Positions 1 to 64,000 of a stretch of 64,000 nucleotides of DNA are shown here, piece by piece. Numbering within the stretch: the first letter of the stretch is position 1; every line of letters begins with the position of its first letter. The notes beneath the pieces were generated by a model. It did no database searches. It had not been told where the DNA came from and was given only the letters and a program-made list of their open reading frames with translations. Made by a program: the position numbers and the translations under genes. The stretch covers positions 1 through 64,000 of the IMG/VR virus record IMGVR_UViG_3300042396_000723; one strand, written 5' to 3'. Source of the stretch: a virus.

Positions 1-675
1 AAAAAAGCGACTCCTGCCAAAACCAAAAAAGCAAAACCCTCAACAAAGCTTAGTGAAGTTAGCAAAGAGCAGAAGAAAGTGGAGGCGATCGCAAAACCAT
101 CCAAAACAATAGGAGATGGAACTCATGACGGTGCACCTAAAAATGCTCAGGAATATTACGATATGGTGACAAAAAGCGGAGGTAAAATCACAAAAGAGGA
201 AGCAGAGGGAACAGCAAGAGCAATTGAAAAATGGGGGTTTGATTCCAATTACGTTAGGGATGTACAAAAAGCGGGTAAATCCAGTCAAGATGAGCAGTAT
301 ATAACCGATTACATCAACAATTCAACTCCGTACAAAGGAGAGGTTTATAGAGGGCTTTTGATCTGGATGGAAAACCCAATGGATCTCATGAAAGTAGGAC
401 AGCCATTGGATAATCAAGGGGCTCACGCTTCTTGGACTTCTAAGTTACAGGTAGCAGAGTATTTTGCTGATGTACCCGACGAGCTTCACTACTCTGTTGT
501 GATTAAGTCAATAAATAATAAAACAGGTGCGTCCATTCGTAACATTGCCGAAGAGTGGCAGGGGGGTTTCACGAAAATGGAGGAGGTCATAGTCCCTAAA
601 AATGCCAAGCATATTGTCAGAAGTATTAAGGAGACAAGAAAAGATGTCTTCTTTGTAGAGGTAGAAGAGGTTTGA
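1..675 (+). CDS. ADP-ribosyltransferase-like domain protein (possible MuF/minor-head associated), 5' end outside window
   Basis: Frame is open from nt 1 with no stop, so the GTG at 79 is not the true start. Translation has YRG, SWTS and MEEVIVP motifs resembling the R / S-T-S / E-x-E triad of ART toxins. Confidence 0.4.
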   Translation, partial: KKATPAKTKKAKPSTKLSEVSKEQKKVEAIAKPSKTIGDGTHDGAPKNAQEYYDMVTKSGGKITKEEAEGTARAIEKWGFDSNYVRDVQKAGKSSQDEQYITDYINNSTPYKGEVYRGLLIWMENPMDLMKVGQPLDNQGAHASWTSKLQVAEYFADVPDELHYSVVIKSINNKTGASIRNIAEEWQGGFTKMEEVIVPKNAKHIVRSIKETRKDVFFVEVEEV

Positions 676-691
676 TTCCTTCCAAAATAAA

Positions 692-716
692 ACCCCAAGA
701 ATACCTGGGGTTTTAT
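692..716 (+). terminator. intrinsic terminator
   Basis: ACCCCA/TGGGGT stem, 8-nt loop, then TTTTATT directly after the stop at 675 (coordinates approx.). Confidence 0.6.
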
Positions 717-886
717 TGTTACAATTCAAATTAAACCGATGTGTACTATTCAATGGGAATGGAAATAATGTACCGCAACCCTGCCTATTTAGTCAGAAAA
801 GACCCTGAAATGTTCGACTTTATTTATGCTGTTGTAAGACAACGTTAAACCGTTTGTTGATATAATTAAGAAAACTAGGGTTAACT

Positions 887-1483
887 ATGGATTTTAATAT
901 TTTTGAGTTAGACGGCAACAGATACCCACTAGAAAAGCCTATTGATTTCCTTCTGAATTGGGCAATGGAGGCATCGGCAGACGAGTTCAAGAGCAAGGAA
1001 TCATTAGATAAAATATCAAAGGTTGTTAAGGCTGTTTGTCCTGCTATTCCTAACGACTACTTCTTTACGGTTGACCCGCAGTGTACGATCCCTTTGATTG
1101 ACAGCTATCAAATAATTGACTTTGTAGCTAAATTAATGGTTTGTGTTATTGAGCGACGGATTAAGGTTATTGAGTCAATCCCAGAAGAAGACAGGGTATC
1201 TTTAAAAGTTGATATTGATCAAAAGGTGGCATTATTCCGTCAAGTTGTTGACCGCATCAGCAAGCAATTCTCTGACTTGAAGTTTAGCCTAATTTTGGGA
1301 GGGATTCAGATAACCAATAACGACAAACCACCATCCCCTGTGTCACAAGAAGATCCGAAACTTGTGGCATTGAATCGGCAGATGTGGACAGGGGTGTCCC
1401 CACAGACAGATTCAAAAATCATGGAACTGAAACGACAGATGGAGGATCTAAGTTCTGAGATTGCTCTACTAGAAAAGGTTTAA
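887..1483 (+). CDS. hypothetical protein, C-terminal coiled coil
   Basis: 198-aa ORF with ATG start; no recognisable motif. Confidence 0.55.
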   Translation: MDFNIFELDGNRYPLEKPIDFLLNWAMEASADEFKSKESLDKISKVVKAVCPAIPNDYFFTVDPQCTIPLIDSYQIIDFVAKLMVCVIERRIKVIESIPEEDRVSLKVDIDQKVALFRQVVDRISKQFSDLKFSLILGGIQITNNDKPPSPVSQEDPKLVALNRQMWTGVSPQTDSKIMELKRQMEDLSSEIALLEKV

Positions 1484-1484: not shown

Positions 1485-1682
1485 TCAGTCCCCGTATCGA
1501 TCCTGGTACTCCTCAATCCCCATTTCTAGGAGCATCAAGAAAAAATAAGTCATCTCCAAAGAGTCAGAAGCGTCGTGCTTGCTGGCTTTTTCTTTTTGGG
1601 CGATCGCTTCTACCTTCTTATATAGGGGCATGGGAACACGGATGGACATTTTACGTTTTTCGATTCCGTCTGAAACTGGCAT
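1485..1682 (-). CDS. ribbon-helix-helix (CopG/Arc-like) DNA-binding protein
   Basis: 65 aa; N-terminal MSIRVPMPLYKKVEAIAQKE resembles an RHH beta-strand plus helix. Confidence 0.45.
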   Translation of the reverse strand: MPVSDGIEKRKMSIRVPMPLYKKVEAIAQKEKASKHDASDSLEMTYFFLMLLEMGIEEYQDRYGD

Positions 1683-2100: not shown

Positions 2101-2766
2101 ATGCTTTTTACTCAACACATCAACGCATTAAATTCAGGTATCACCTCCATTCAATCCCGAATTGACGAACTAGAGGCTATTCTTAAAGGGTTACGCAACG
2201 ACAAAACCAATTTGGAAGCCGAACTTCAAACAGTCCTAACCTTAGAAGGTGCGGCGGAATCAGCTATCAATCAAGCTCAGTCTTTTGTTAACGCCGCCGA
2301 TTCTATGGGACGGACTGACCTGATCGCCACTTTCTGGCAGGCTATGGACGCTATGCAAAAAGGAGCGATCGCACAACTCCCAGAATCACCGGAACCCGAA
2401 CCTACCCCCGAACCCGAACCTACCCCCGAACCACAATCCCCAACCGATGACGTGATCACGGTAGAAGTGACACCGGAACCACAATCCCCAACCGATGACG
2501 TGATCACGGTAGAAGTGACACCGGAACCCGAACCCACCACCCCGACAACGCCAGATCCCATGACTGAAACTCAAAACGGTAAAGTCCCTCAGTCGGTAGG
2601 GAGTGCAGCTTTTAGCACAAAAGATGCTACCTTGGAAGAACTAAAAGAATATGTCCGAAACTTTCAATCGGACGATAAGACAAAAGTTCACGGGAAACTT
2701 AGTCAACGAAGTACCTGGGTGATCGCTGCCAAACAACTTATGAATATCTCAGACTACACGAAATAA
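2101..2766 (+). CDS. hypothetical protein with N-terminal coiled coil and PEPT-rich repetitive linker
   Basis: 221-aa ORF; internal PEPEPTPEPEPT and duplicated PEPQSPTDDVITVEVT segment. Confidence 0.55.
   Translation: MLFTQHINALNSGITSIQSRIDELEAILKGLRNDKTNLEAELQTVLTLEGAAESAINQAQSFVNAADSMGRTDLIATFWQAMDAMQKGAIAQLPESPEPEPTPEPEPTPEPQSPTDDVITVEVTPEPQSPTDDVITVEVTPEPEPTTPTTPDPMTETQNGKVPQSVGSAAFSTKDATLEELKEYVRNFQSDDKTKVHGKLSQRSTWVIAAKQLMNISDYTK
2428..2523 (+). repeat. perfect 48-bp tandem direct repeat (2 units) inside CDS 2101-2766
   Basis: gaaccacaatccccaaccgatgacgtgatcacggtagaagtgacaccg occurs twice head-to-tail. Confidence 0.9.
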
Positions 2767-2877: not shown

Positions 2878-5800
2878 ATGTCAAGTTCAAGTCTTAGCGG
2901 AGTCAGTATCACGATCTCGGCAAGTAATCAAGTTTCTCCTGTCCTTAGATCAATTCAAGAGGAGTTGCTTGGGCTGCGCCAACCCCTTCAGGTACTTGAC
3001 TTGTTTCGGAGTTCCTTTGGGGGGATAACGTCATCTATTGTTCAGGCTACGACAACTATCGGCTTCTTTGGGCAGGGGATGTCAACGCTTCGAGGGTTGG
3101 TTTCTAACGGCCCGTTTAAATTGTTGATTGGACAAACAGTCGAATTACATGGGCAGTTGCTATCGGTCGCTTCAACTATGGCGGCAACCTCAAAAATTAT
3201 TAGTAACGGGTTTGAAATTAAAGATCCTACACAAGCGATTCAGGCACTCAACCAACCTATAAACGAACAGATTAGACAGTTAAGAATTGATTCTATTGAT
3301 CTAGTTGGGGTCACGTCTAAGCAGTTGATTCCAGTATTTCAACAGGTGGCACAGGGTGCGACACCGATTGGAGCAACCCTAAGCGACGCAAGGAGTTTAA
3401 CCATTGACTTTGCAGCCGCACTGGGAACTTTACAAGTTCCATTGTTTCAAAGTAGGCAAGAAATTCAATCAATTTTTCTAGGAACAATTGATATGAATTC
3501 TATCCTGGCTAAATCGTTGGGGATAACTAACGTGATGGTTGCCAAGTGGAAGGCTCAGGGAACTTTGGTGCAGGAATTGACCACGCGATTGTCTGCATTT
3601 AGGGCCGGGAACAAATTGGCAGCCCAGAGTTTTTCTGGGGTAACTTCAAACATTCAAGAGATGTTTGAATTGATAGGACAAAGATCGGGGGAAAAACTAT
3701 TAACACCTTTGACTCAATCCCTAAACGAAGTCTACAAGTTTTTACAAACGAACCTTGATATGTTGGTGGGTGAATCGGGGAAGGTTACAGATCAGATCCT
3801 TCGCGCGGGTCTAGCCTTCCAGTCTATTTTTAAAACGGTTCTTGGGGATGTGGTGACGGTCTTTAAGGATGTTCCATTATTCTTGTTTACCTCTCTAGCG
3901 AACGCATTGGAGGCACTGAATCAAGGTCTGGGATTCACGATGGCGGTATTGCGTCCTGCCATTAACCTGTTCGCGGCATTATCAAGTGCGGTAGCTCCCC
4001 TCGCTTCTGGTTTCCTTGTGATTGCCCTTCAGGTAAAAGCCCTCACTGTTGGAGTAGGAATACTTTCTAAGGCTTTTGGGGTATTAGGCGGCATTCTGTT
4101 ACCCGGTGTCGGGCAAATCTTCCCCCTCCTTGTTGCTAACGCAGGTGCTTTAGGCGCTGCTTTTACGGGGCTTGGGGGAGCAACTATCTTCAGTTCTGTA
4201 GGTATGGCTCAATTCTCTGCCAACCTTCAGCGAATACCCGGCGCAATGACGTTAATGGCTTCTGCTACGGCAGCGTTAGGGAATCTTCTCAGGACAGTTG
4301 GCTTGGCGGTTGTCGCATTTGGTGCGTTCAAAATAATTGATGAATTTATCCTCAAAAACAGGGGGTTAATGGAAGTCCTTGGGGGTGTATTTGGGGGGTT
4401 GGGTGAAGTTGTCAATATTTTAATCGGGTCTTGGCAGTCAGCCTTGATCACTTCGACTGTTGTTGTCGGGGGGTTAGCGATCGCATTCCGCGCTCAATTA
4501 ATCCCTGCGGTTTTGTCGTTTATCTCAATTCAATTAGCTGGTGTTGTAACCAGTTCTGCATCTGCATTTGTGTTTCTTGCCGGAGTATTGACTTCTCTTG
4601 GATTTAGTAGTATGGCTATCACGGCCGGAACTGCTGCACTTCATTTACAAATGCTGTCTGCGTCTGCAAGTCTGGGAACATTGACTATGGGAGGGTTGGC
4701 TCTTGCTATTAAAAGTGTAGCCTTATCTGTAGCTACGTTACTCGCTCCTTTGGCTGCTGTAACTGCGGTAGTGGGAGGTGTTGGACTTGTTCTTTATAGT
4801 CAATCCTTAAAGGATTCTACAGAAGCCACACAGGAGTTAGCTAATAGAACTGAAGAATATGGGGATTTAGCTATTGATTCGCTTGAGAAACTGTCTGTGG
4901 CTCAGAAAAAGCAACAGGAGTCAGAGAAATCAGGGATTAGATTGACCGACGAAGAATATAAAAACAATCAAAAACTTCAAAATCAAGCCAAACTCAGGAT
5001 CGGATTAATAGAGGATCAAATAACTGCATTAAAAGAGCAGGAAAAAACAGTTAAGGGTGATGCCAACAAGTCTAACATTCAATCTCAAATAGGTGAGCTA
5101 GAAAAACTAAAAACGGCATTAGCTCAAGCATCTTCTAATGTGGTTATTGCACCAAAAGATTTAATGGTATTGGGGACGGCGTTAGAACAGTTAAAGAAAA
5201 AAGCAAATGAAGCTATGGACGCAATTCTAAAACCATCTGGAGATCAGGAGGTGTTTAAGAAAAAGGCATCCGAGGTTATTGAATTTAACATGGCTTTGTT
5301 AGAAATGGGGCAAACAATTGATAAGGATGTTATTACTAAACTACGTCAGTTAGCTAACGATACAAGGTTAGATCAAGAGGTTCAACGCAAGGCACAGGAA
5401 ACAATTACTAAAGTCATTGAGCAGGAAAGCAAAAAGCGATCCGATACTATTGCAAAACAAAAAGCAGAGGTAGAATCTCAACAAAAAAACGGGGAGATAG
5501 GAGTAAGGAAATCGGAAAAGTTAATAACTGATTTAACTATCAAGGAATTAGAGGAACGGAAATCAGCCCAACAAGAAATCCAGTCCGAGCAACGAGCTTT
5601 TGGAAACATTGAAGCAGCCCGAAAAGCAGGGGAAGAAATCAAGAAAATAGAATCAGATATTACTAAAGCAATTGCAGAGGAACGGTCTAAACGAAACGAG
5701 GAACTGGTTAAAAACTTTCAGGAGCAACAGTCAATTATTGAGGGGTATCTCGCCCAAGGATTAACCACAGAGAAAAACTACAACAACCAAAAATCACAGT

Positions 5801-9620: not shown

Positions 9621-9830
9621 CTAGGGATTGTGCGATCGCATACCATAATTTTTAGACATACGGAACCAGAAACAATCAAGGCAGAATTGAGAATTTGGCT
9701 TAACATCAAAACTAAATCCCAACCATCCATTTATGGGGTAAAAAGAAATACCATAATCACCCAAAAATATAAAGTCTGGCTCTTTTGTGTTTTCACTGCC
9801 GAGCAATACTGGATAAAAGTTTATGTGCAT
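9621..9830 (-). CDS. hypothetical protein
   Basis: 69-aa ORF continuing the minus-strand block; an overlapping plus-strand ORF (9618-9851) was not chosen. Confidence 0.3.
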   Translation of the reverse strand: MHINFYPVLLGSENTKEPDFIFLGDYGISFYPINGWLGFSFDVKPNSQFCLDCFWFRMSKNYGMRSHNP

Positions 9831-11664: not shown

Positions 11665-12507
11665 TTACTCACCGATAATCATTTGGCGATCGCCTTTTTG
11701 ATTTGCCCATAATTCCCGAACCAATTCAACAGATTCAGCCGGAATATAGTCAGTCTGAACCGGACGCATGGCTTTAGAAATTAGATGATCATGTCCGCAA
11801 GATTCTAACCATTTTTCCAACTCCTTGCCAGACTTGAATTTTAATTCCTTGCCAAGTTGAGCTAAGGACTTCCCACGAAATACAGCTAACTGTTTTCCGT
11901 CTTCATTCATAACAACCGACTCGAATTGGGTTTCGGTTTCTCTCACCACCGCTTCGGGGCGACCTTGAATGAGTGCTAACATTCCTGCACCGTGAATGGT
12001 GACGATAGAGGCACTGGATTCTAAAACAAATCGCTGATCTTTCATGGAACTGGCTTGGGCTTCGGCAATTCGGACTTGCAACCGGAGTGCTTCTAATTCA
12101 TCGTGTTGCTGAGGAATGACGGTTTCCGCTTCACGGGTTTTAACAACAAAGTAAGATTGAGCTTGAGCGATTTCCGGTTTGCGGACATCACCATTCATGG
12201 CGATAAGATATGCCGCGTAACGAGACAGCTTATAGTCCTCTTGTCTACTTCCCCCTCCCTGTGGGCGTTTTACCAGATTGTCGGCTCCGGCAAAATGGTT
12301 TTCCGTCAACTCTCCTTGAATTTGACATGACACAATTGCCCGTTGAATCGCATCAGCAAATCTTTTCCATTGTCCATACCCTAATAACCCCATCAACTCC
12401 CGTGCCAACCAATACTCGCAACCTTCACGGTCAATGCGCTTAATGGAATCAAAAGGGGATTTGGATTGATTGTGATCTTGATTGCCAGACAATGCTAAAC
12501 TAGACAT
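11665..12507 (-). CDS. Bro-N domain protein (DinD-like, DNA-damage-inducible/antirepressor family)
   Basis: CEYWLARELMGLLGYGQWKRFADAIQRA matches the Bro-N core; start placed at the internal ATG preceded by AAAGGAGGG rather than the track's 12642. Confidence 0.55.
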   Translation of the reverse strand: MSSLALSGNQDHNQSKSPFDSIKRIDREGCEYWLARELMGLLGYGQWKRFADAIQRAIVSCQIQGELTENHFAGADNLVKRPQGGGSRQEDYKLSRYAAYLIAMNGDVRKPEIAQAQSYFVVKTREAETVIPQQHDELEALRLQVRIAEAQASSMKDQRFVLESSASIVTIHGAGMLALIQGRPEAVVRETETQFESVVMNEDGKQLAVFRGKSLAQLGKELKFKSGKELEKWLESCGHDHLISKAMRPVQTDYIPAESVELVRELWANQKGDRQMIIGE

Positions 12508-16557: not shown

Positions 16558-17268
16558 ATGGCTGATAAATGTTTGGTAATTTTAAGCGGCGGTCAAGATA
16601 GTACGACTTGCTTGGCGATCGCAAAAAGTAAATTCAAAGAAGTTCACGCAGTAACTTTTAATTATGGTCAACGGCATTTAACCGAAATTGAGAGCGCGAT
16701 CAAAATAGCTGAAAAGTTAAACTTAGCTTCCCATGAAATTATCGATCTAGGTCAGGGGATTTTAAAAGGTAGCTCCCCACTGGTCAGCAACAACGAATTG
16801 GGAGTTTATAAGAATGTTGATGAATTACCTGGCGGGGTAGAACCAACTTTTGTTTATAGCAGGAATATTTTATTTTTAACTATTGCATCTAATCGCGCCG
16901 CCGTTATGGGTATTAATGATATCTTTATCGGTGTCTGTGAAGCTGATTATGCGGGTTATTTTGATTGCAGACTAGATTTTATCAATGTCATGTCGAAAGC
17001 GTTAGGAGAGGGTGTTTATGGTTCGCCCGATGCTTTTAAAATTCATACTCCGTTAATGAGCTTAACTAAAGCCGAATCGGTATTATTAGCTAAGGATTTA
17101 TTGGGTGATGATTTTGATTCAGTGATGGAATTAACCCATACTTGTTATGCGGGTGTTAAGGGCGGATGTGGTAAATGTCACGCTTGTTTGATTCGTGACA
17201 GAGGTTTTCAAGAGGCGGGAATAGTTGACCCAATATGGAAGTTTAGAAATGTATCTGTATTTAGTTGA
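16558..17268 (+). CDS. queC: 7-cyano-7-deazaguanine (preQ0) synthase QueC
   Basis: PP-loop SGGQDS and C-terminal zinc motif CYAGVKGGCGKCHAC; internal ATG preferred over track start 16549. Confidence 0.85.
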   Translation: MADKCLVILSGGQDSTTCLAIAKSKFKEVHAVTFNYGQRHLTEIESAIKIAEKLNLASHEIIDLGQGILKGSSPLVSNNELGVYKNVDELPGGVEPTFVYSRNILFLTIASNRAAVMGINDIFIGVCEADYAGYFDCRLDFINVMSKALGEGVYGSPDAFKIHTPLMSLTKAESVLLAKDLLGDDFDSVMELTHTCYAGVKGGCGKCHACLIRDRGFQEAGIVDPIWKFRNVSVFS

Positions 17269-23029: not shown

Positions 23030-23187
23030 CAGTAGCCTGTTATATAGGTTTGCTCAAGTCCCCAGATGTTTTGTCACATCGTGGGGATATTGCATTATTA
23101 TATCATTTTATCTTGGTAGCGCGATCGCTTAAAATCCCTAGCAACAATCAGGGTTACAGCCAATTTAAAAATAATTTTATAAAACGC

Positions 23188-42967: not shown

Positions 42968-43261
42968 CTATCTAGTAAAACTGATTTGAGCATCCCAGAG
43001 GGTTTGAAGCCACTGGTTTTGCGTGGGCATTAAGTGTTGATTTTTTTCTCTTAACGGATGCGGGAACATCCTCCGAGCTAGTTTAGATGCTGCGATCGCA
43101 TCTTTTTTAGAATGAAAATACCCAGGGAAACGTCGCCCTGATGCCAAGTGAGTAACCCCCCAGTAATCGTCGTCAATCCGATGTACAGCGATCCACTTTC
43201 TGATAGTTGCCTTTACTTTCCATCGCCCATAAATAGTATGGGTTACAATCGTTTTTCTCAT
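42968..43261 (-). CDS. hypothetical protein
   Basis: 97-aa ORF. Confidence 0.4.
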   Translation of the reverse strand: MRKTIVTHTIYGRWKVKATIRKWIAVHRIDDDYWGVTHLASGRRFPGYFHSKKDAIAASKLARRMFPHPLREKNQHLMPTQNQWLQTLWDAQISFTR

Positions 43262-44379: not shown

Positions 44380-44589
44380 CTAGCGAGTGCGATCGCGCCC
44401 CGCTTGTTGACCATCTTCATAACACCCTTGATCAAGGTGTGCTATTACTTCATCCCCTTTCAGGAGCCACCATTTCCGGTGATAAGGGACAGAACCCGTA
44501 GCGGTTCCCCAGAGTTCAACGCCTTCGGGCATCGCGTAATAATCTTTGTCGTAATTTGAAGCCACCCGTCTAATTTCTGATGCGTTCAT
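44380..44589 (-). CDS. hypothetical protein
   Basis: 69-aa ORF. Confidence 0.35.
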   Translation of the reverse strand: MNASEIRRVASNYDKDYYAMPEGVELWGTATGSVPYHRKWWLLKGDEVIAHLDQGCYEDGQQAGRDRTR

Positions 44590-47909: not shown

Positions 47910-49081
47910 AACCATCTATTCTAGCCGCCTTTGCAGAAGCCGTCCCCTATATCCCCGGACTCAGACAGCAAACAGGGAGCGTAGTAGCCACGATTCTTAT
48001 GATGCAACTTGAGTATCGTTTCGCAAAGTATCCAGACGGGTTTTATAAGTTTTTAGAACCCCCTCAAAACGGACATCAGGACTACAGGCTTGGGGATAGT
48101 TGGGTTGAGGAACTCGCTTTTTCTAAAGAAGAATTTAGGACTGGGTTTGACAAGATTGGAGTCCGTTACAACTCCAAAACCCAGTATGACGAAGCAAAAT
48201 CTAGCGGATCGGAATTTGGTTGTAATTACTACTGTTCTTACGTTGACCGGAGGTCGGGGTTAACTTTCTACTTTCGGAATCACAGCAAGGTAGATGAGCT
48301 AATTTCCGATATCGAACCCAGGCAAAAATCAGTGGGTTTTCGCCCACGGAAAACTAGACCCCAAATGGTAGATCCCAATCTACAGGAAATCGGGAATCCC
48401 AATTTACTGAATATGGTAAATCCCAATTTACCATCATCGGGAATCCCAATTTACCAGAGTGGTGAATCCCAATTTCCTATTCCTTATATAGATATTTCAG
48501 AAAAGACTTCAGAAAAGACTCCAGAAAATACCCCCCTTACCCCCCAAGGGGAATCGGAGGAGGGGGGGATTCAGAACGAAGCCGTTTTGATTTCAAACGA
48601 AGACCAGGGGAAAGAGCTTACCGAGGACTCTGCTACACAGCAAAGTCAAAAAGAGAATCACCGACCTGAACAAAATCTTAATCCGGTGATCAGACATTCC
48701 GCCGCCGTCGAGTCCGATCCTCGATTTCTACCAACGGACGCAACAGCAGACAATATGAAAACTTGGAACGCAATTGTGGCGACCGGAGCCATGAGAGGTG
48801 AGCGATCGCCCGACCCTGAGTTTTTGGAATATTACAGGGGGCTATTAAGCAAATGCACTCATTACAGGGGCAAAGACTGTAATTCAAACCATGCCAAATC
48901 TTCCCTTGCTCAGAAATGGAAATCCGAGCCACTAAAAATCCTTGCCGATGCCGAGTCGTGGTTGAAATCAAAAGCCAAGTTTAGCGGTGGCAAATCAACC
49001 CAGACCCGCAATATCAGCGAACTTTCTAGGGATGAACGCCTCGCCATCCTGAGAGCCAAACGCGAACAAAAAGGAGCCTAA
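47888..49081 (+). CDS. hypothetical protein (replication module)
   Basis: 397-aa ORF; repeated NPNL-like tetrapeptides. Confidence 0.5.
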   Translation: MGSGGCMKPSILAAFAEAVPYIPGLRQQTGSVVATILMMQLEYRFAKYPDGFYKFLEPPQNGHQDYRLGDSWVEELAFSKEEFRTGFDKIGVRYNSKTQYDEAKSSGSEFGCNYYCSYVDRRSGLTFYFRNHSKVDELISDIEPRQKSVGFRPRKTRPQMVDPNLQEIGNPNLLNMVNPNLPSSGIPIYQSGESQFPIPYIDISEKTSEKTPENTPLTPQGESEEGGIQNEAVLISNEDQGKELTEDSATQQSQKENHRPEQNLNPVIRHSAAVESDPRFLPTDATADNMKTWNAIVATGAMRGERSPDPEFLEYYRGLLSKCTHYRGKDCNSNHAKSSLAQKWKSEPLKILADAESWLKSKAKFSGGKSTQTRNISELSRDERLAILRAKREQKGA

Positions 49082-49671: not shown

Positions 49672-50987
49672 TGGAAACAATAATCATGCAAAACGTTGAG
49701 GCAGAACAAGCCGTTTTGGGAGCGATTCTCTTAGACCCCGAAGCTATGGGGCGAGTTGCGGAAACGCTAACTGCTAAATCTTTTTCCCTGCGATCGCATC
49801 AAACAATCTACAAAGCAGCTTTAGCATTACATTCCGAGGGAATAACCACGGATTTAATGACCGTCACTACCTGGTTATCCGATCAGAAATTACTTGAAAA
49901 AGCCGGGGGACAATTAGGATTAACCCAATTATTAGACCGCACAGTTTCAGCAGTTAACATTGATCAATACGGGCTGTTAATTGCCGATAAGCAAACTCGA
50001 AGAAACCTAATTGAATCTGCCCATAAAATTATTGAATTGGCAGAAGATACCAGTCAACCTTTAGAGACAATTCTCCAAAAGTCAGAGGAACAAATTGCTA
50101 ATATTTCCCAATCAAAATCACAACAGGATTTAGTTTCGATTGGTGAAACTTTAATTGATACCTTTCAAGAAATTGAAGACCGGAGCGAAAGCAAGATTCC
50201 CCCCGGTGTCCCCTCTGGATTTTATGACCTCGATGCTATGACTGGAGGATTCCAACACACCGACTTAATTATTGTGGCAGGAAGACCTGCAATGGGCAAA
50301 TCGAGTTTGGCTTTAAATTTTGGATATAACATTGCCAAAAAAGGGCTACCCGTCGCGGTCTTCAGTTTAGAAATGTCTAAAGGTCAATTAGTCCAAAGAC
50401 TATTATCGAGCGAAACCAAAATTGAAAGTACCCGCATTCGTTCAGGAAACATTCAGCAAGAGGAATGGGAACCTTTGACAACCGCAATTAGTTCCTTAGC
50501 AGAATTACCGATTTATATTGACGACACCTCGAATATTACCATCACCGAAATGCGTTCTGAAGCTCGAAGATTGCAAGCCGATAACGATGGAAAGTTAGGC
50601 TTAATTCTAATAGATTATCTGCAATTAATGGACGGAGGAAGTGATAATCGGGTGCAAGAATTGTCAAGAATTACACGGGGATTAAAGGGAATGGCAAAAG
50701 ATTTAAACGTTCCTGTAGTTGTCCTGTCTCAGTTGAGTCGTAGCGTCGAACAGCGCACCAATAAACGCCCAATGCTTTCAGACTTGAGAGAATCGGGCTC
50801 AATTGAACAAGACGCGGACTTAGTAATGATGATCTATCGAGATGATTATTATAATCCCAACACTTCGGACGCGGGAATAGCTGAATTAATTTTAGCTAAA
50901 CATCGCAACGGCCCCACCGGAACAGTAAAGCTATTGTTCGATTCTCAATTTACCCAATTTAAAAATTTAGTACGGGGGATGAACTAA
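49671..50987 (+). CDS. dnaB: replicative DNA helicase DnaB
   Basis: N-terminal AEQAVLGAILLDPEA, Walker A AGRPAMGKSSLALN, Walker B LGLILIDYLQLM, RecA-like SQLSRSVEQR and arginine finger region. Confidence 0.9.
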   Translation: METIIMQNVEAEQAVLGAILLDPEAMGRVAETLTAKSFSLRSHQTIYKAALALHSEGITTDLMTVTTWLSDQKLLEKAGGQLGLTQLLDRTVSAVNIDQYGLLIADKQTRRNLIESAHKIIELAEDTSQPLETILQKSEEQIANISQSKSQQDLVSIGETLIDTFQEIEDRSESKIPPGVPSGFYDLDAMTGGFQHTDLIIVAGRPAMGKSSLALNFGYNIAKKGLPVAVFSLEMSKGQLVQRLLSSETKIESTRIRSGNIQQEEWEPLTTAISSLAELPIYIDDTSNITITEMRSEARRLQADNDGKLGLILIDYLQLMDGGSDNRVQELSRITRGLKGMAKDLNVPVVVLSQLSRSVEQRTNKRPMLSDLRESGSIEQDADLVMMIYRDDYYNPNTSDAGIAELILAKHRNGPTGTVKLLFDSQFTQFKNLVRGMN

Positions 50988-51420: not shown

Positions 51421-51984
51421 ATGACCGCAGCAACCAAGAAGATAATTGAAAGAATCTTAAAAATTGGTGAGTGGGTAGAGATTGACCCACATAAACACCG
51501 CCCATCTTATCTAATAAGAGGTACAGCATGGCGAGTTGAAAGTTTCAATGTATTAAAACAAACCTGTCAAGTAACTAACGAAAAAACCAGATCGGAAACC
51601 CTAGACTTTGAGGAGGTTTCCGACTCATCCCCATTCAAAAAAACAGATATTGTGCAATTAAAAAAGGATAGCCGTTACATCGGACGGGTGATTATGTGCC
51701 GGGGGAATAAAATCAAAATTCAGTGGGCGAAAGGATTGGCAGAATCCTTAGACTCGGACAAGATAAAACTATTTATTCAGATGGTCAAAGGGGAACAAAT
51801 CCCCCTCGGAAATTACGCTTTCCAGAAAGGCGATCATGTCAAAACTACAGACAAGAATTTTGGCAATGTAATCCTCACTGTAAAAGAATGCTTACCCTCT
51901 GGAATGGTGGTGTTGAGTTCATCAAACGATCCTAATTTATTGCTCCCCGGCTGTGGCTTAACAATTGTTGAGGAGGGTTTCTAA
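51421..51984 (+). CDS. hypothetical protein
   Basis: 187-aa ORF. Confidence 0.5.
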   Translation: MTAATKKIIERILKIGEWVEIDPHKHRPSYLIRGTAWRVESFNVLKQTCQVTNEKTRSETLDFEEVSDSSPFKKTDIVQLKKDSRYIGRVIMCRGNKIKIQWAKGLAESLDSDKIKLFIQMVKGEQIPLGNYAFQKGDHVKTTDKNFGNVILTVKECLPSGMVVLSSSNDPNLLLPGCGLTIVEEGF

Positions 51985-53015
51985 TGCCAACATTCGCAAC
52001 ATTATTCATGGGCGGAGGCGGTGCAGATTTGGGGTTAGAGGCCGCAGGGTTTAAGTCTTTATGGGGAATTGAAAGAGATCCTAAAATTGCAGAAGTAGCA
52101 CGATTAAATTTCCCAAATACCAAAGTATTTAATTCTTGCGCAGGAGACATAAACCCCCGCAGTCTTCCCTATGTTGACCTGCTTTGGATGAGTCCCCCGT
52201 GCCAACAGTATTCAAACGCTAGACGGGGTAATTTAGGCGATCACAAAGACAAGGACGCGGGGCTGTACTGTAGCAGTTATATCGCAGCGATTGATCCTCG
52301 ATGGGTAGTTTTAGAAAACGTCCCTGGCTACTCAAAATCACCTGTATTCGAGAAAATCCTACAATCCTTAATTCGCCACGGATATCGCTATCATTGGTTA
52401 ATACTTGACGCGGCGGATCACGGGGTTCCCCAAAACCGGAAACGGTTGATTATGTGGGCAGTTAAAAATGATCAACCTCTCCCCTATTTCCCCGAATCAA
52501 AACCCAAAAAGGGATGGTATCAAGCCATTGCTGACTTAATCCCAGAAATGCAGGACTGTGAGCTTGCAGACTGGCAGATTAAGCGACTAAATGAATTGGG
52601 TTATTTACCAGAAAAAGCCTGGATTGATATTGGGAAACAACTCATTAGACAGGCTACAGTTCGGGAGTCAAACGATCCAAGTTTTACTATTGTGAGTGGT
52701 CATGTTAACTCGCATTCTCCTATCCTGTTAATCCCCCGAGCGGGAGCTTGCATCAAGAATATTCTCCCGACTCCACAGAACAAACCCTGCCCAACAATTC
52801 GAGCTATGAAGGATGTTTCAACCCATTGGGCGGACATCGTGCAGGGAAGCCAAATTAAACGAATTAGTCAGAAAGCGACGGCACGGCTCCAGACTTTCCC
52901 CGACTCCTATCAATTCCCAGAATCCAAAACTTTAAGCCAACAAATAATAGGAAACGCCGTGCCTCCGTTATTGGCTAAAGAATTAGGTCTGGCAATCTTA
53001 AAATCAATTAACTAA
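51984..53015 (+). CDS. DNA (cytosine-5)-methyltransferase
   Basis: Motif I LFMGGGG, motif IV SPPCQQYS (PCQ), motif VI VLENVPG. Confidence 0.85.
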   Translation: MPTFATLFMGGGGADLGLEAAGFKSLWGIERDPKIAEVARLNFPNTKVFNSCAGDINPRSLPYVDLLWMSPPCQQYSNARRGNLGDHKDKDAGLYCSSYIAAIDPRWVVLENVPGYSKSPVFEKILQSLIRHGYRYHWLILDAADHGVPQNRKRLIMWAVKNDQPLPYFPESKPKKGWYQAIADLIPEMQDCELADWQIKRLNELGYLPEKAWIDIGKQLIRQATVRESNDPSFTIVSGHVNSHSPILLIPRAGACIKNILPTPQNKPCPTIRAMKDVSTHWADIVQGSQIKRISQKATARLQTFPDSYQFPESKTLSQQIIGNAVPPLLAKELGLAILKSIN

Positions 53016-53781: not shown

Positions 53782-53982
53782 ATGGTAAGACCCCACGAAC
53801 ACAGGCAAGAAATCAAAGCCAGACTCAAACCAGAAGATAGGGAGAAGTTGAAAGCCCTCGTCGTTGGCATGGGTTATCGTTATTGGAGGCAGGAGTCACC
53901 GGAACCCGCATGGACTGAGTTTTTGGAGGCGATCGCAACGGGCGATATAATTCTTTACAAAAAAGTCGGGGGAGGGGGTTGA
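53782..53982 (+). CDS. hypothetical small protein
   Basis: 66-aa ORF. Confidence 0.35.
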   Translation: MVRPHEHRQEIKARLKPEDREKLKALVVGMGYRYWRQESPEPAWTEFLEAIATGDIILYKKVGGGG

Positions 53983-58757: not shown

Positions 58758-58759
58758 GA

Positions 58760-60791: not shown

Positions 60792-60808
60792 TTTGATTAC
60801 GAGGGTAA

Positions 60809-61339: not shown

Positions 61340-61610
61340 GGAAAAGCGATAAAAAACTTATAATAATTTGAATTATTAAAGTTGATATTTTCATATTATC
61401 AAACTTGTCATAACCTATCTTGTTAAAGCTGTCAAACAATAACATCAATCCGTTATTTATCAACAGAGTAGATGACAAGTATTGATTCAACTTTCGGTTA
61501 TCAAATATCAAGGAAAATCCATTAATAATAGAAATCAGTCCGGCAAAGAAAAGCAAGAAGGCATAACCGGACTGGTTGAAAGGGAGCGAAAAAATTGATA
61601 TTGATATCAT
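61251..61610 (-). CDS. membrane protein
   Basis: 119 aa with 3 hydrophobic helices; overlaps the downstream ORF. Confidence 0.35.
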   Translation of the reverse strand: MISISIFSLPFNQSGYAFLLFFAGLISIINGFSLIFDNRKLNQYLSSTLLINNGLMLLFDSFNKIGYDKFDNMKISTLIIQIIISFLSLFLVLGHHYERSKKLKERKKEGESYDFRKRG

Positions 61611-61930
61611 TCTATTGGTGTTAATGGGTTGTTTTTTGACGCTTCAATTGCTGCTTTTCTGGTGGCTATTATTCCCATTGCCTCTGTAACCAGTGCAATT
61701 TTTATCCACTCCATCTTTTCGGAAAATCCTGGATATTTAGTCTCTAATTCATTGGGTGTTCCCAAATTCAAAATACCTTCACCTGGACTTGTCCCCAAAA
61801 CTTCTCCAGTCTCAAGATTGACAATCGAATATTGGTGGCACAGTTCAATTACAACATCCAATAAAATCCCACTCACAGGAATCTGTTGGCTTTGTAATAC
61901 AAAAAAATGGTCTTTTTTCTCAATAGTCAT
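61607..61930 (-). CDS. hypothetical protein
   Basis: 107-aa ORF directly downstream of the tail-fibre gene. Confidence 0.45.
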   Translation of the reverse strand: MTIEKKDHFFVLQSQQIPVSGILLDVVIELCHQYSIVNLETGEVLGTSPGEGILNLGTPNELETKYPGFSEKMEWIKIALVTEAMGIIATRKAAIEASKNNPLTPIE

Positions 61931-61934
61931 GATT

Positions 61935-64000
61935 TTATGCCGTGTAAATTATTGTTATTTTAACTGGTTTTGATAAAATATTTTCGCTATTTGTTGGATG
62001 ATTTATTATTTGTATGTCCGCCACTGACACGGACACGGAAAAATGAAGACCAACAAACTGTGTATCATATCCAGACAATACAAACGCGTTTGCGCTGAAT
62101 TCCACTAATACTGTGACGGATACAATTTTTGAAACCGTAACTCCATGAGCTATTAATGCAACCCCCCCTTCAGTTGCAGCCGTAGTCCCCGTCAAAACTT
62201 TAATCTTAATCCCTGGATGATTAGCGTCCCCACCTAAAGAACTGAAACCACCAACATATTGATTTCCTCCAATCCCCTGTCCCCCAGGAATTACACTAGC
62301 TCCCGTGGTGGGAGATGTTGAAGGTGTTGTGGAATTAGTTGATATCACACCTCTTAGGTAGGTATTGGTGATACTTGAATCACCAATTGTTACGGTGTTT
62401 GAGCCGTTACCGGTGGCGTTAAAACAAAATACGTTTTCGTTGGTTGCGTTCTGGGTTCCTTTTGTATTTGCGCCAAAAAAACAAGAGTTATTTGAGATAG
62501 TTAGACCTGTAACGCCGTCAGAAGTGAAGCGTCCTGCACCAACTCCAAAACCTGCCAAATTACTCCCTGTTATATTGCTGAAAAGCGCACCAACTCCAGA
62601 GGCAGTTAAATTATTCCCTGTAGTGTTATTTTCTAAAGCCCCAACGCCAAAAGCAGACGAATTATTCCCTGTAGTATTAGAACGAAGCGCATTAAGTCCA
62701 GCGGCAGTTAAACTACTCCCTGTAATATTGGACAAAAGCGCACTAACTCCAACTGCCGTTGAATAATTCCCTGTGGTGTTATTTTGTAAAGCCCCAGTTC
62801 CAAAACCTGCCAGGCCAATACCTGTGGTATTGGCCTGGAGCACACTAACTCCTGTTATTGTATTTGTGTCTAAACTCCCCCCTCCTCTCCCAATAGGAAT
62901 CAAATTATAAGAATTGGCACTAACAGTACCAGCAAAAATAGCACCCGTAACCCCTAAACTAGCGACCCTTAAAGCCCCTGTAGTTGTTGATGTTGATTGG
63001 GTTGATAGGGGAATATGAAATCTCGAACTATCAACAGAGAAATAAGTAGTCGCACCATCTCCCCAGGATTGAATCCCTGTCGATATATCTCTCTCCCACC
63101 ACGTTCTAGTGGTACTCAGGGGAATGTTAAAGGAAGCATCAACAGCTATCCCGTTATGAAAACTGGTTGTATTCCAGTCTACACCATTAGCTTTCCGACA
63201 AAGCCAAGTTCTTTCTGTTATTATGTTTCCTGATGCCCCTGTTTTTGAAGATAAAACTTGAAAATCTCCAGATGTACTACCGAGAGGAGACCCTTGATAT
63301 AGACTAACTCCTGCACCTAAAGAACCTATTATGTTTCCGTTTACTGCTAGATTCCCCGTGATAGTCCCACCCGCCAATGAAAGATAGGAATTAATATCAA
63401 TTGAATAAGTCCCATCCCCTGTTTTCTTTAGGAATCCTGGGGTGTCGGATAGCGATTGAATAGCAATTAATTCGTTGCCGATACTGTTAGTTGAAACCGC
63501 AGTTACTTGACCCTTAGCATTGACAGTAATAGCAGGAATTGAACTAGCACTACCGAAAGAACCAGCATTACTATTGACCGTTGCCAGTGTTATCGCACTT
63601 GTAACATTGGCTGAACCATCAAAAGATACTGAATAACTAGCATCCCCCGTTGTTGTAATTGTCCGTGGCGTGGTTAGTTTTAAAGCCTCTCCCGCAGTAG
63701 CAGAACTCGATATCTCAACATAAACAGAACCCGACCATCGGTAAACTTTATTAGTCGTTTCATCAACGTAAATCTTTCCAGTTTCACCCGTACCTGGGAA
63801 CCCGGCAAGGTTTGTATAACTCAGGACATCATCAACATAAGACGGTAAAAGCCCAGATGAAATTGTGCCAGACGCGGCGTTTAAACTTGTTAAAACTTCG
63901 TTACCAGTAGACGCGATCGCACCAACATCAGACGCGGTTAAACTAATCTGAGCTTTAGGAACCTTGGTATTTGAATCCAAGGTAGCCACACCATTAGCCA
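61935..64000 (-). CDS. tail fibre-like protein, N-terminus outside window
   Basis: Frame stays open upstream of the GTG at 63989 to the window edge; Thr/Ser/Gly-rich with about six 17-19-aa N-x-TG-x(4)-A-x-G-x-(G)AL repeats; KIYVDETTNKVYRWSGSVYVEI fibre-like segment. Confidence 0.55.
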   Translation of the reverse strand, partial: ANGVATLDSNTKVPKAQISLTASDVGAIASTGNEVLTSLNAASGTISSGLLPSYVDDVLSYTNLAGFPGTGETGKIYVDETTNKVYRWSGSVYVEISSSATAGEALKLTTPRTITTTGDASYSVSFDGSANVTSAITLATVNSNAGSFGSASSIPAITVNAKGQVTAVSTNSIGNELIAIQSLSDTPGFLKKTGDGTYSIDINSYLSLAGGTITGNLAVNGNIIGSLGAGVSLYQGSPLGSTSGDFQVLSSKTGASGNIITERTWLCRKANGVDWNTTSFHNGIAVDASFNIPLSTTRTWWERDISTGIQSWGDGATTYFSVDSSRFHIPLSTQSTSTTTGALRVASLGVTGAIFAGTVSANSYNLIPIGRGGGSLDTNTITGVSVLQANTTGIGLAGFGTGALQNNTTGNYSTAVGVSALLSNITGSSLTAAGLNALRSNTTGNNSSAFGVGALENNTTGNNLTASGVGALFSNITGSNLAGFGVGAGRFTSDGVTGLTISNNSCFFGANTKGTQNATNENVFCFNATGNGSNTVTIGDSSITNTYLRGVISTNSTTPSTSPTTGASVIPGGQGIGGNQYVGGFSSLGGDANHPGIKIKVLTGTTAATEGGVALIAHGVTVSKIVSVTVLVEFSANAFVLSGYDTQFVGLHFSVSVSVADIQIINHPTNSENILSKPVKITIIYTA

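What the first reader, a model, noticed from the sequence alone, without database searches (positions are those of the whole stretch)
1..64000. HIP1 (GCGATCGC) over-representation marks a cyanobacterial host
I count at least 22 copies (for example about 85, 1600, 4447, 9612, 11686, 23112, 23476, 24410, 25046, 30497, 31445, 33227, 35986, 42326, 43096, 44388, 48805, 49787, 53928, 63914), against roughly one expected by chance in 64 kb. HIP1 is a hallmark of many cyanobacterial chromosomes, so this element is either a prophage or a phage long adapted to a HIP1-rich host. HIP1 contains GATC and CGATCG, which is relevant to the phage's own Dam-like and Dcm enzymes.
Basis: partly seen in the sequence, partly recalled or inferred. 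Interest (0 to 1): 0.5.

Follow-up and report, generated by a model that had tools for sequence, protein, structure and literature searches.

The report
Host-type HIP1 palindromes in a Planktothrix phage
The cyanobacterial signature octamer GCGATCGC really is about 50-100 times too frequent here, because the window is a relative of the Planktothrix cyanophage PaV-LD whose DNA carries its host's sequence signature; this is a clean but expected host marker.

Summary
GCGATCGC occurs exactly 22 times, against 0.2-0.4 expected. It is the most frequent octamer in the window.

The window is bases 1-64000 of a 96-kb contig. It is a mosaic relative of Planktothrix phage PaV-LD and colinear with it. PaV-LD itself has 46 HIP1 sites. 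Thirty-nine uncultured relatives are equally rich.

Planktothrix chromosomal loci carry 0.58-0.78 sites per kb, against 0.34 in the window. Non-cyanobacterial loci carry essentially none.

The excess lies in the DNA, not the protein. Ten of 18 Ala-Ile-Ala tripeptides are spelled GCG-ATC-GCN, against 0.9 expected from codon usage. Sites are scattered at random, equally dense in PaV-LD-shared and window-specific DNA, and turn over by point mutation. Twenty-two of 23 CGATCG sit inside HIP1, as in hosts.

The phage also shares the host's palindrome avoidance: 22 of 64 hexamer palindromes are absent.

No integrase and no host DNA were found in the window, so a free or episomal phage is more likely than a prophage. 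The phage encodes a Dam-family and a C5 methyltransferase, but their targets could not be determined. Podoviruses A-4L and Pf-WMP4, with no annotated methyltransferase, have no GATC at all.

Verdict: a host signature acquired in situ, and an expected extension of known HIP1 biology.

The parts
85..92 (.). HIP1 site, codon phase 0 (E-A-I-A-K)
   Evidence: PaV-LD has GCGATTGC at the orthologous position.
1600..1607 (.). HIP1 site, phase 0 (A-I-A) on the minus-strand ORF
   Evidence: Conserved in PaV-LD.
2365..2372 (.). HIP1 site, phase 0 (G-A-I-A-Q)
   Evidence: Conserved in PaV-LD.
4477..4484 (.). HIP1 site inside the tape-measure gene (2878-7926), phase 0 (L-A-I-A-F)
   Evidence: Conserved in PaV-LD. 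This is a phage structural gene, not host-derived.
9632..9639 (.). HIP1 site in window-specific DNA
11686..11693 (.). HIP1 site in the Bro-N gene, phase 1 (G-D-R)
   Evidence: Conserved in PaV-LD.
16615..16622 (.). HIP1 site inside queC of the 7-deazaguanine cluster, phase 0 (L-A-I-A-K)
   Evidence: This DNA is absent from PaV-LD.
23121..23128 (.). HIP1 site in window-specific DNA
23479..23486 (.). HIP1 site, phase 0 (G-A-I-A-K), in ORF 23248-24432
24409..24416 (.). HIP1 site, phase 0 (Y-A-I-A-S), in ORF 23248-24432
25040..25047 (.). HIP1 site at the start of an ORF (M-A-I-A-T)
   Evidence: PaV-LD has GCGTTAGC here.
30499..30506 (.). HIP1 site, phase 1 (C-D-R)
   Evidence: Not conserved in PaV-LD. 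It lies 8 nt from the end of a homology block.
31452..31459 (.). HIP1 site inside the Dam-family methyltransferase gene, phase 1 (C-D-R)
   Evidence: Conserved in PaV-LD.
33215..33222 (.). HIP1 site, phase 1 (S-D-R)
35985..35992 (.). HIP1 site, phase 2 (L-R-S)
   Evidence: PaV-LD has a sequence that differs at several positions.
42326..42333 (.). HIP1 site, phase 2 (L-R-S)
   Evidence: Conserved in PaV-LD and in 6 of 9 aligned relatives.
43092..43099 (.). HIP1 site, phase 0 (D-A-I-A-A)
   Evidence: Kept in 17 of 20 aligned relatives.
44389..44396 (.). HIP1 site, phase 1 (R-D-R)
   Evidence: Kept in only 1 of 8 aligned relatives.
48802..48809 (.). HIP1 site in ORF 47888-49081 (counterpart of the PaV-LD replication-initiation gene), phase 2 (E-R-S)
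   Evidence: Kept in 9 of 22 relatives.
49790..49797 (.). HIP1 site inside dnaB (49671-50987), phase 2 (L-R-S)
   Evidence: Conserved in PaV-LD and in 34 of 42 relatives.
53929..53936 (.). HIP1 site, phase 2 (L-R-S)
   Evidence: Kept in 5 of 15 relatives. The others carry GCGATCAC, GCGGTCGC or GCGATTAC.
63913..63920 (.). HIP1 site, phase 0 (G-A-I-A-S), in ORF 61935-63989
51984..53015 (+). C5 cytosine DNA methyltransferase; target sequence unknown
   Evidence: PF00145 at E 3e-54. TIGR00675 at 137.6 bits. 85% identical to PaV-LD ORF010R.
31082..31633 (+). Dam-family N6-adenine DNA methyltransferase; GATC is a plausible target but was not shown
   Evidence: PF05869 at 60.7 bits, above its cut-off. 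TIGR01712 matches below its cut-off. 94% identical to PaV-LD ORF117R.
22784..23017 (-). Lar-like restriction-alleviation protein; context for the phage's anti-restriction repertoire
   Evidence: tblastn with PaV-LD ORF107L gives 85% identity. The name comes from the annotation shown.

Best explanation
**What it is.** The window is two thirds of the genome of a PaV-LD-like cyanophage of Planktothrix. Its 22 HIP1 sites are the host lineage's genome signature, written into phage DNA in situ.

**How the sites arise.** They arise by point mutation, mostly at synonymous positions of Ala-Ile-Ala, x-Asp-Arg and Arg-Ser codon runs. The directional pressure is the same one that fills cyanobacterial chromosomes with HIP1. 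They are not imported with pieces of host DNA.

**Most likely driver (inferred, not shown).** A methylation-linked repair bias of the kind Elhai proposed (PMC4390886). In that model a methylated CGATCG that gains a flanking G or C is preferentially fixed. CGATCG then ratchets into GCGATCGC.

**Why the phage can accumulate the motif (inferred).** It replicates generation after generation in HIP1-rich hosts, and GATC-containing sites are not purged from its genome. That tolerance is probably due to its own Dam-family and C5 methyltransferases, or to host methylation of its DNA.

**Shown here:** the enrichment, its DNA-level nature, its dispersion, its turnover, its presence across the phage clade and the match to host loci.

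**Inferred:** the repair-bias driver and the protective role of the methyltransferases.
For: **Enrichment.** There are 22 sites against 0.2-0.4 expected, and HIP1 is the top octamer.

**Identity of the element.** The window is colinear with PaV-LD across that record's ends. It is bases 1-64000 of a 96,184-bp contig. IMG/VR contig L087 is 100% identical over 41123-60984.

**Clade-wide and host-matched.**
- PaV-LD has 46 sites, or 0.48 per kb.
- Thirty-nine IMG/VR relatives have 240 sites in 548 kb against 3.8 expected.
- Planktothrix chromosomal dnaB regions have 12-16 sites per 20.6 kb.
- Forty-five non-cyanobacterial loci have none, and five distant IMG/VR relatives have none.

**DNA-level effect.**
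- Ten of 18 A-I-A tripeptides are spelled GCGATCGCN, against 0.88 expected from codon usage.
- Five of 11 [SGRC]-D-R runs carry HIP1, against 0.18 expected.
- Seven of 15 x-R-S-[LPHQR] runs carry HIP1, against 0.03 expected.
- PaV-LD behaves the same way.

**In-situ origin.**
- Spacing is Poisson-like (CV 0.83, P = 0.71).
- Ten sites lie in PaV-LD-aligned DNA and 12 in window-specific DNA of equal size.
- Sites occur in the tape-measure gene and in other genes with no sign of host origin.
- In aligned DNA, 8 sites are shared, 4 are window-only and 8 are PaV-LD-only. Some alternatives are one step away, such as GCGATTGC, GCAATCGC and GCGGTCGC.

**Ratchet-like signature.** Twenty-two of 23 CGATCG in the window lie inside HIP1, as do 46 of 48 in PaV-LD and 240 of 255 in relatives. 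Non-HIP1 CGATCG totals 3 in the two phages, against 16.8 expected from a Markov model (numbers; Poisson P about 5e-5 by my arithmetic). Elhai reports the same context dependence for hosts.

**Tolerance of GATC.** GATC is not depleted in the window (211 against 233 expected). In contrast, 22 of 64 hexamer palindromes are absent (Poisson expectation 0.08). The palindrome profile correlates with host loci at rho 0.72.

**Comparators.** CL131 and Nostoc N1 each have an annotated C5 methyltransferase. They are HIP1-rich at 1.40 and 0.66 per kb. A-4L and Pf-WMP4 have no annotated methyltransferase. They have zero GATC against about 157 expected.
Against: - The driver is not identified. Xu et al. (PMC5861425) argue for selection on HIP1 in hosts, and Elhai himself lists arguments for function.
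- Elhai's model predicts that one-off variants deviate mainly at positions 1 and 8. In the phage these variants are nearly absent: 1 of 16 in the window and 2 of 13 in PaV-LD. The commonest one-off class is C6>T / G3>A.
- The phage C5 methyltransferase has no close named host orthologue. Its only full-length solved relative is M.HaeIII, a GGCC enzyme. A CGATCG target is therefore unproven.
- The host density comes from one orthologous chromosomal region in five genomes (92 kb), not from whole genomes.
- The methyltransferase/HIP1 contrast rests on six phages from about four lineages.
Confidence: 0.8

Rival explanations
1. HIP1 sites are kept in the phage by selection for a function of the motif itself. 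Candidate functions are recombination with co-infecting phages or the host, a strand-discrimination or 'self' mark read by host repair or defence systems, or a methylation-dependent process.
For: - Three of the six window sites covered by many relatives are kept more often than about 90% of neighbouring octamers: 42326, 43092 and 49790.
- Six of 22 window sites lie within 40 nt of a homology-block boundary with PaV-LD, against 2.0 expected (P about 0.01).
- Published work argues for selection in hosts (PMC5861425). A preprint reports a homology- and methylation-dependent effect of HIP1 on transformation (10.1101/2024.09.10.611283, abstract).
Against: - Site retention between the window and PaV-LD is no better than for neighbouring octamers: 8 of 12 against 6.8 expected, P = 0.31.
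- The other three multi-relative sites rank at the 28th-46th percentile.
- The boundary association depends on a threshold chosen afterwards. It fails on the PaV-LD side: 4 of 30 against 2.5 expected, P = 0.24.
- Spacing is indistinguishable from random.
Confidence: 0.3
2. The sites were imported with host DNA. On this view the window is an integrated prophage with host flanks, or HIP1 came in with captured host genes such as dnaB, tmk and nblA.
For: - The phage carries host-like genes: DnaB 72% identical to host DnaB, thymidylate kinase and nblA.
- PaV-LD encodes an integrase.
- The contig sits in a genome or MAG assembly, GCA_043536285.1.
Against: - Only one site (49790) lies in dnaB, and none lies in tmk or nblA. 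Sites do occur in the tape-measure gene, the Bro-N gene, the Dam gene and many small ORFs with no identified host counterpart.
- All 64 kb are colinear with PaV-LD or are mosaic inserts between shared blocks.
- The window has no integrase.
- In the Planktothrix genome assemblies, including one complete chromosome, the search found only the host's own intein-containing dnaB. The full-length phage-type DnaB hits under a Planktothrix label (L006, L007) are MAG contigs.
Confidence: 0.05
3. The excess is a by-product of amino-acid content, codon usage or local composition.
For: All 22 sites fall in ORFs and use only three peptide contexts.
Against: - Dinucleotide shuffles give 0.2 sites and a third-order Markov model gives 0.34.
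- Given the same peptides and the phage's own codon usage, 1.1 sites are expected in the three contexts together, and 22 are seen.
Confidence: 0.01

Closest known systems
HIP1 (highly iterated palindrome 1, GCGATCGC) of cyanobacterial chromosomes (Robinson 1995; Elhai 2015, PMC4390886; Xu 2018, PMC5861425)
   Same: It is the same octamer. The observed/expected ratio of 54-110 falls in the reported host range of 55-228, and the density of 344 per Mb falls in the reported 300-2700 per Mb. It is the top octamer. CGATCG is over-represented only inside HIP1. Sites are dispersed, mostly coding, and have unique flanks.
   Different: It sits on a phage genome, not a chromosome. The density is about half that of the sampled host loci. 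One-off variants at the outer positions are nearly absent, whereas in hosts they are the commonest class. Non-HIP1 CGATCG is depleted in this phage and in PaV-LD but not in the host sample. None of the HIP1 papers I could search mentions phages.
Planktothrix phage PaV-LD (NC_016564)
   Same: Gene order is colinear over the whole window at 67-99% identity per block. Shared genes include the tape-measure gene, dnaB, the C5 and Dam methyltransferases, nblA, tmk, endolysin/peptidase, FtsK-like and Lar-like genes. Eight HIP1 sites lie at orthologous positions.
   Different: About half of the window (32.7 kb) has no DNA match to PaV-LD. PaV-LD's integrase region and its third methyltransferase are missing. 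The window has a 7-deazaguanine cluster that PaV-LD lacks.
Genome-signature convergence of phages with their hosts, and restriction-site avoidance in phage genomes
   Same: The phage matches its host in over-represented words (HIP1) and under-represented words (22 absent hexamer palindromes, GGCC 16 against 111 expected, rho 0.72 with host loci). This is the basis of k-mer host prediction.
   Different: Here one octamer carries most of the positive signal. It is a palindrome that contains two methyltransferase targets, in a genome that has otherwise purged a third of all hexamer palindromes.
Other functionally read over-represented oligomers (Chi sites, DNA uptake sequences)
   Same: They are short words, tens to hundreds of times over-represented, dispersed, and often encoded through codon choice.
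   Different: No reader protein or orientation bias is known for HIP1. The motif is a palindrome, so it cannot carry polarity as Chi does. No functional test exists for phages.

Membership tests
HIP1 genome signature | Exact GCGATCGC over-represented at least 15-fold over a composition-matched expectation | tested here: met
   22 sites against 0.20 (shuffles), 0.34 (third-order Markov) and 0.41 (base composition).
HIP1 genome signature | HIP1 is the most abundant octamer, at a density of hundreds per Mb | tested here: met
   It is the top octamer. The density is 344 per Mb, against the reported host range of 300-2700 per Mb.
HIP1 genome signature | CGATCG is over-represented only in the HIP1 context | tested here: met
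   22 of 23 in the window, 46 of 48 in PaV-LD. Elhai describes the same for hosts.
HIP1 genome signature | Sites are dispersed and formed in situ, not copies of a mobile repeat | tested here: met
   Flanks are unique. Spacing is Poisson-like. Gain and loss occur by point mutation between relatives.
HIP1 genome signature | One-off variants deviate mostly at positions 1 and 8 (Elhai 2015) | tested here: not met
   Variants at positions 1 or 8 number 1 of 16 in the window and 2 of 13 in PaV-LD. C6>T / G3>A is the commonest class. The counts are small.
HIP1 genome signature | Accompanied by GATC-specific (DmtA) and CGATCG-specific (DmtC) methyltransferases | tested here: inconclusive
   A Dam-family and a C5 methyltransferase are encoded. 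Their specificity cannot be read from sequence, and there is no close named host orthologue.
HIP1 genome signature | The sites are methylated in vivo | not testable with these tools
   This needs methylome sequencing or restriction assays on virion DNA.
PaV-LD-like Planktothrix cyanophage | Synteny and sequence similarity to PaV-LD across structural, replication and lysis modules | tested here: met
PaV-LD-like Planktothrix cyanophage | Planktothrix as host | tested here: inconclusive
   The evidence is indirect: the closest isolate infects P. agardhii, DnaB is nearest to Planktothrix DnaB, and the HIP1 and palindrome profiles match Planktothrix loci. There is no culture or CRISPR-spacer evidence.
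Integrated prophage | Integrase, attachment sites and flanking host genes | tested here: not met
   The window has no homologue of the PaV-LD integrase and no host stretch. The contig is about the size of the phage genome. Contig bases 64001-96184 could not be read.

The most novel reading that the evidence does not exclude
Freshwater cyanophages of HIP1-rich hosts may follow two alternative strategies, set by whether they carry their own DNA methyltransferases. Phages without them, such as the podoviruses A-4L and Pf-WMP4, purge GATC completely and therefore cannot carry HIP1. Phages with Dam/C5 enzymes, such as the PaV-LD group, CL131 and N1, methylate these sites and then accumulate HIP1 to near-host density. 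The accumulation could be actively favoured. A phage-encoded CGATCG-type methylase might drive the CGATCG-to-HIP1 ratchet harder than in the host. Alternatively, host-like HIP1 methylation might let phage DNA pass as self for repair, recombination or defence systems.
Probability: 0.2. Interest if true: 0.55.

Novelty: new member of a known kind. Interest (0 to 1): 0.3.

Why it matters
HIP1 gives a one-word, alignment-free marker that assigns this contig and its relatives to a HIP1-rich cyanobacterial host. Several relatives sit in MAGs labelled Acetobacteraceae, Terrimicrobiaceae or Obscuribacterales, and the marker exposes those as binning errors.

Phage genomes that replicate in HIP1-rich cells are also natural experiments on how HIP1 arises, which has been an open question for 30 years. 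They share the host's replication and repair environment but not its chromosome biology. Their HIP1 density, their turnover and their own methyltransferases can therefore help separate mutational bias from selection.

For this window in particular, the result is confirmatory rather than surprising.

Tried and rejected
1. **Purifying selection on individual sites.** Retention against PaV-LD was 8 of 12, with 6.8 expected (P = 0.31). Retention against 43 relatives was mixed. This gives no support.
2. **HIP1 as mosaic recombination junctions.** The window side is suggestive: 6 of 22 sites within 40 nt of a boundary, P about 0.01, with the threshold chosen afterwards. It was not reproduced on the PaV-LD side (P = 0.24). 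Inconclusive.
3. **Enrichment of one-off precursors.** None was seen: 16 against 11.4 expected in the window and 13 against 18 in PaV-LD.
4. **Specificity of the C5 methyltransferase.** The homologue search returned no organism-named protein above 36% identity; closer hits carry at most a generic enzyme name. The PDB search gives only generic C5 enzymes, with M.HaeIII the only full-length match. The Dam-family protein has no PDB relative.
5. **Source organism of GCA_043536285.1.** No paper mentions the accession. The genome-collection scan did not return this contig.
6. **Reading the rest of the contig.** The 684-aa product at the window's end is not on record, so bases 64001-96184 stayed unread.
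7. **The PaV-LD genome paper (10.1128/JVI.06282-11).** It is not held in the library.
8. **Single-sequence structure prediction of the 378-aa protein at 17225-18361.** The model was unusable, with mean pLDDT 39. The PHROG match answered the question instead.
9. **Literature on HIP1 in cyanophages.** Full-text searches found none.

Full report
**1. The observation**

An exact search finds 22 copies of GCGATCGC. One hundred dinucleotide-preserving shuffles give a mean of 0.20 and never more than 1. Base composition predicts 0.41 and a third-order Markov model 0.34. HIP1 is the most frequent of all octamers in this 41% G+C window, ahead of A/T-rich words. The two unlisted sites start at 2365 and 16615. 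The flanks of the 22 sites all differ, so these are independent sites and not copies of a larger repeat.

**2. What the window is**

- Megablast against phage records hits only Planktothrix phage PaV-LD, whose host is P. agardhii.
- A local blastn shows that the window runs colinearly from PaV-LD position 56.6 kb to the end of that record. It then continues from the start of the record to 25.2 kb. Blocks range from 67% to 99% identity, with unrelated inserts between them.
- About half of the window (31.3 kb) aligns with PaV-LD and half (32.7 kb) does not.
- The tape-measure protein is encoded on a single public contig, JBFDIP010000094.1 of assembly GCA_043536285.1. That contig is 96,184 bp, and the window is its first 64,000 bases. 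PaV-LD is 95,299 bp.
- An IMG/VR contig (L087) is 100% identical to window 41123-60984.
- The window has no homologue of PaV-LD's integrase. PaV-LD region 7.9-11.5 kb is replaced by about 290 bp.
- No stretch of the window looks like host chromosome.
- A scan of one genome per species returned Planktothrix chromosomes only through their own intein-containing dnaB. No integrated copy of the phage appeared.

The element is therefore best read as a free or episomal phage genome co-assembled with its host. I could not read the last 32 kb of the contig.

**3. Is HIP1 a host mark?**

| Sequence set | HIP1 count and density | Source |
|---|---|---|
| Window | 22 in 64 kb; 0.34 per kb | |
| PaV-LD | 46 in 95.3 kb; 0.48 per kb | |
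| 39 uncultured relatives with DnaB at least 77% identical | 240 in 548 kb against 3.8 expected; each locus 0.21-0.70 per kb | |
| 3 Planktothrix chromosomal dnaB regions (L052, L054, L055) | 12-16 per 20.6 kb; 0.58-0.78 per kb | |
| All 5 host-type dnaB loci (adds L051, labelled Oscillatoriales, and the shorter L057) | 59 in 92.5 kb; about 640 per Mb | |
| 45 loci from other phyla, fetched by the same search | none; the rest near expectation | |
| 5 distant viral relatives (32-38% DnaB identity) | none | |

Elhai's survey gives 300-2700 sites per Mb and an observed/expected ratio of 55-228 for most cyanobacteria. The window (344 per Mb, ratio 54-110) lies at the low end of that range and at about half the sampled host density.

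The host sample has two limits. The loci are orthologous, so they represent one chromosomal region. The IMG/VR loci also overlap one another and are not independent.

**4. Anatomy of the enrichment**

- **Coding context.** All 22 sites lie in ORFs. Ten read Ala-Ile-Ala, five read x-Asp-Arg and seven read Arg-Ser.
- **Not a protein effect.** Of 18 A-I-A tripeptides, 10 are spelled GCG-ATC-GCN, against 0.88 expected from the phage's own codon usage. The other two contexts give 5 against 0.18 and 7 against 0.03. PaV-LD behaves the same way, with 23 of 36 against 1.64.
- **Spacing.** It is indistinguishable from random (CV 0.83, P = 0.71; largest gap 10 kb, P = 0.45). Sites are equally dense in PaV-LD-shared DNA (10 sites) and window-specific DNA (12 sites).
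- **Gene types.** Sites occur in the tape-measure gene, the Bro-N gene, the Dam gene, queC and many small ORFs with no identified host counterpart. Only one lies in the host-like dnaB. Import with host DNA is therefore excluded as the main source.
- **Turnover against PaV-LD.** In aligned DNA, 8 sites are shared, 4 are window-only and 8 are PaV-LD-only. Several alternatives are a single transition away: GCGATTGC, GCAATCGC and GCGGTCGC.
- **Turnover across relatives.** Across 43 relatives, 13 orthologous columns carry HIP1 in some genomes and not in others.
- **Retention.** Retention is not clearly better than for neighbouring octamers. It is 8 of 12 against 6.8 expected (P = 0.31). Across relatives, three sites rank near the 90th percentile and three at the 28th-46th.

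**5. CGATCG and GATC**

- Twenty-two of the 23 CGATCG in the window are HIP1. The figures are 46 of 48 in PaV-LD and 240 of 255 in relatives.
- Outside HIP1, CGATCG is depleted in the two phages: 1 and 2 observed against Markov expectations of 5.6 and 11.2. By my arithmetic the combined Poisson P is about 5e-5.
- The host sample shows 9 against 12.1 expected, which is no depletion.
- GATC as such is neutral, at 211 against 233 expected.

This is the context dependence that Elhai reports for host genomes. He explains it by a ratchet in which methylated CGATCG gains a flanking G or C through methyl-directed mismatch repair. One prediction of that model is not met here. One-off variants at the outer positions are nearly absent, and the commonest one-off class is C6>T / G3>A. 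The counts are small.

**6. The phage's methyltransferases**

- The window encodes a C5 cytosine methyltransferase at 51984-53015. It matches PF00145 at E 3e-54 and is 85% identical to PaV-LD ORF010R.
- It also encodes a Dam-family N6-adenine methyltransferase at 31082-31633. It matches PF05869 above the cut-off and is 94% identical to PaV-LD ORF117R.
The next tier is at 44% or less, and the only organism-named hit is a hypothetical protein at 36%. It is therefore not a close copy of a conserved host enzyme.
- The only full-length solved relative is M.HaeIII. That says nothing firm about the target, and GGCC is in fact strongly avoided in the phage (16 against 111 expected).

**7. Wider context**

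- **Palindrome avoidance.** Twenty-two of the 64 hexamer palindromes are completely absent from the window, against a Poisson expectation of 0.08. Twelve of them are also absent from the 92 kb of Planktothrix loci. The observed/expected profiles correlate at rho 0.72 with the host and 0.82 with PaV-LD. They correlate at only 0.10-0.38 with cyanophages of other hosts.
- **CGATCG stands out.** It is the most over-represented hexamer palindrome in the window, in PaV-LD and in the host. The phage mirrors its host in avoided words as well as in the favoured one.
- **Comparator phages.**

| Phage | HIP1 | GATC (observed / expected) | Annotated methyltransferase |
|---|---|---|---|
| Aphanizomenon phage CL131 (first 50 kb) | 1.40 per kb | 186 / 175 | C5 and N4/N6 |
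| Nostoc phage N1 (first 50 kb) | 0.66 per kb | 206 / 165 | C5 |
| Anabaena podovirus A-4L | 0 | 0 / about 157 | none |
| Phormidium podovirus Pf-WMP4 | 0 | 0 / about 159 | none |
| Microcystis phage Ma-LMM01 (first 50 kb) | 1 site | 102 / 192 | not assessed |
| Prochlorococcus phage P-SSP7 | 0 | 133 / 156 | not assessed |

HIP1 richness is therefore not universal among phages of HIP1-rich hosts. In this small sample it goes with carrying methyltransferases and tolerating GATC.

**8. Explanation**

Shown here:
- the motif excess is real and acts at the DNA level;
- the sites are dispersed and turn over;
- the excess is shared by the whole phage clade;
- it matches Planktothrix DNA.

Inferred:
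- the sites form in situ under the pressure that acts on host chromosomes, most likely a methylation-linked repair bias;
- the phage can accumulate them because GATC-containing sites are protected and not purged.

Selection for a function of HIP1 in the phage is neither supported nor excluded. Import with host DNA and compositional artefact are rejected.

**9. Novelty**

HIP1 itself, PaV-LD, and the convergence of phage word usage on that of the host are all known. Full-text searches found no paper that describes HIP1 in cyanophage genomes. The main HIP1 studies do not mention phages, and one excluded plasmids. This is a new instance of a known signature. It is useful as a host and binning marker, and as material for the question of how HIP1 arises, but it would not surprise a specialist.

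Noticed in passing
window 13277-19028: A 7-deazaguanine DNA-modification module that PaV-LD lacks. It comprises QueE (14823-15470), QueD (15470-15880), FolE (15750-16373) and QueC (16549-17268). A 378-aa protein (17225-18361) has no Pfam or NCBIfam hit but matches PHROG 887, 'queuine tRNA-ribosyltransferase', at E 6e-36, so it is DpdA-like. A 264-aa protein (13952-14746) matches Tet_JBP weakly (33 bits, below the cut-off) and PHROG 6059. ParB-like proteins flank the module on both sides. McKindles et al. 2023 (PMC10343443) already report queuosine-cassette and Tet_JBP genes on Planktothrix phage contigs.
   Followed up: partly
whole window; host loci L051, L052, L054, L055, L057: Palindrome avoidance is extreme. 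Twenty-two of 64 hexamer palindromes are absent (Poisson expectation 0.08), for example ATGCAT, AGTACT, ACTAGT, TCTAGA, TACGTA, CTGCAG and GGATCC. GGCC occurs 16 times against 111 expected. Twelve of the absent words are also absent from 92 kb of Planktothrix chromosome, and the profiles correlate at rho 0.72.
   Followed up: yes
loci L084 (Anabaena phage A-4L) and L085 (Phormidium phage Pf-WMP4): Both podovirus genomes contain no GATC at all in about 41 kb, against about 157 expected. They therefore have no HIP1, and neither has an annotated methyltransferase. CL131, N1 and PaV-LD each have an annotated methyltransferase and are HIP1-rich.
   Followed up: partly
loci L004, L011, L005, L009, L080: Contigs binned into MAGs labelled Acetobacteraceae, Terrimicrobiaceae and Candidatus Obscuribacterales encode DnaB proteins 75-100% identical to the window's. 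They also carry HIP1 at phage-like density. They are almost certainly mis-binned PaV-LD-like phage fragments.
   Followed up: partly
window 49671-50987; L054 9956-12325: The phage DnaB helicase is 72% identical to the N-terminal part of the host's chromosomal DnaB. The host protein is interrupted by an intein and the phage copy is not. The phage helicase therefore looks host-related.
   Followed up: partly
window 53447-53737: PaV-LD region 7.9-11.5 kb, which includes its integrase, is replaced here by about 290 bp. PaV-LD's third methyltransferase (ORF029L) also has no counterpart in the window.
   Followed up: partly
window 55722-55880 (-) and 22784-23017 (-): The window carries an nblA phycobilisome-degradation gene (94% identical to PaV-LD's) and a Lar-like restriction-alleviation gene (85% identical).
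   Followed up: no
window HIP1 sites 11686, 30499, 33215, 44389, 53929, 63913: Six sites lie within about 45 nt of the ends of homology blocks shared with PaV-LD. With a 40-nt limit the expectation is 2.0 and P is about 0.01. The pattern was not reproduced on the PaV-LD side. It could hint at recombination near HIP1, or it could be a BLAST end effect.
   Followed up: partly
window 19459-20160: A GIY-YIG / NUMOD3 homing-endonuclease-like ORF lies next to the modification module.
   Followed up: no
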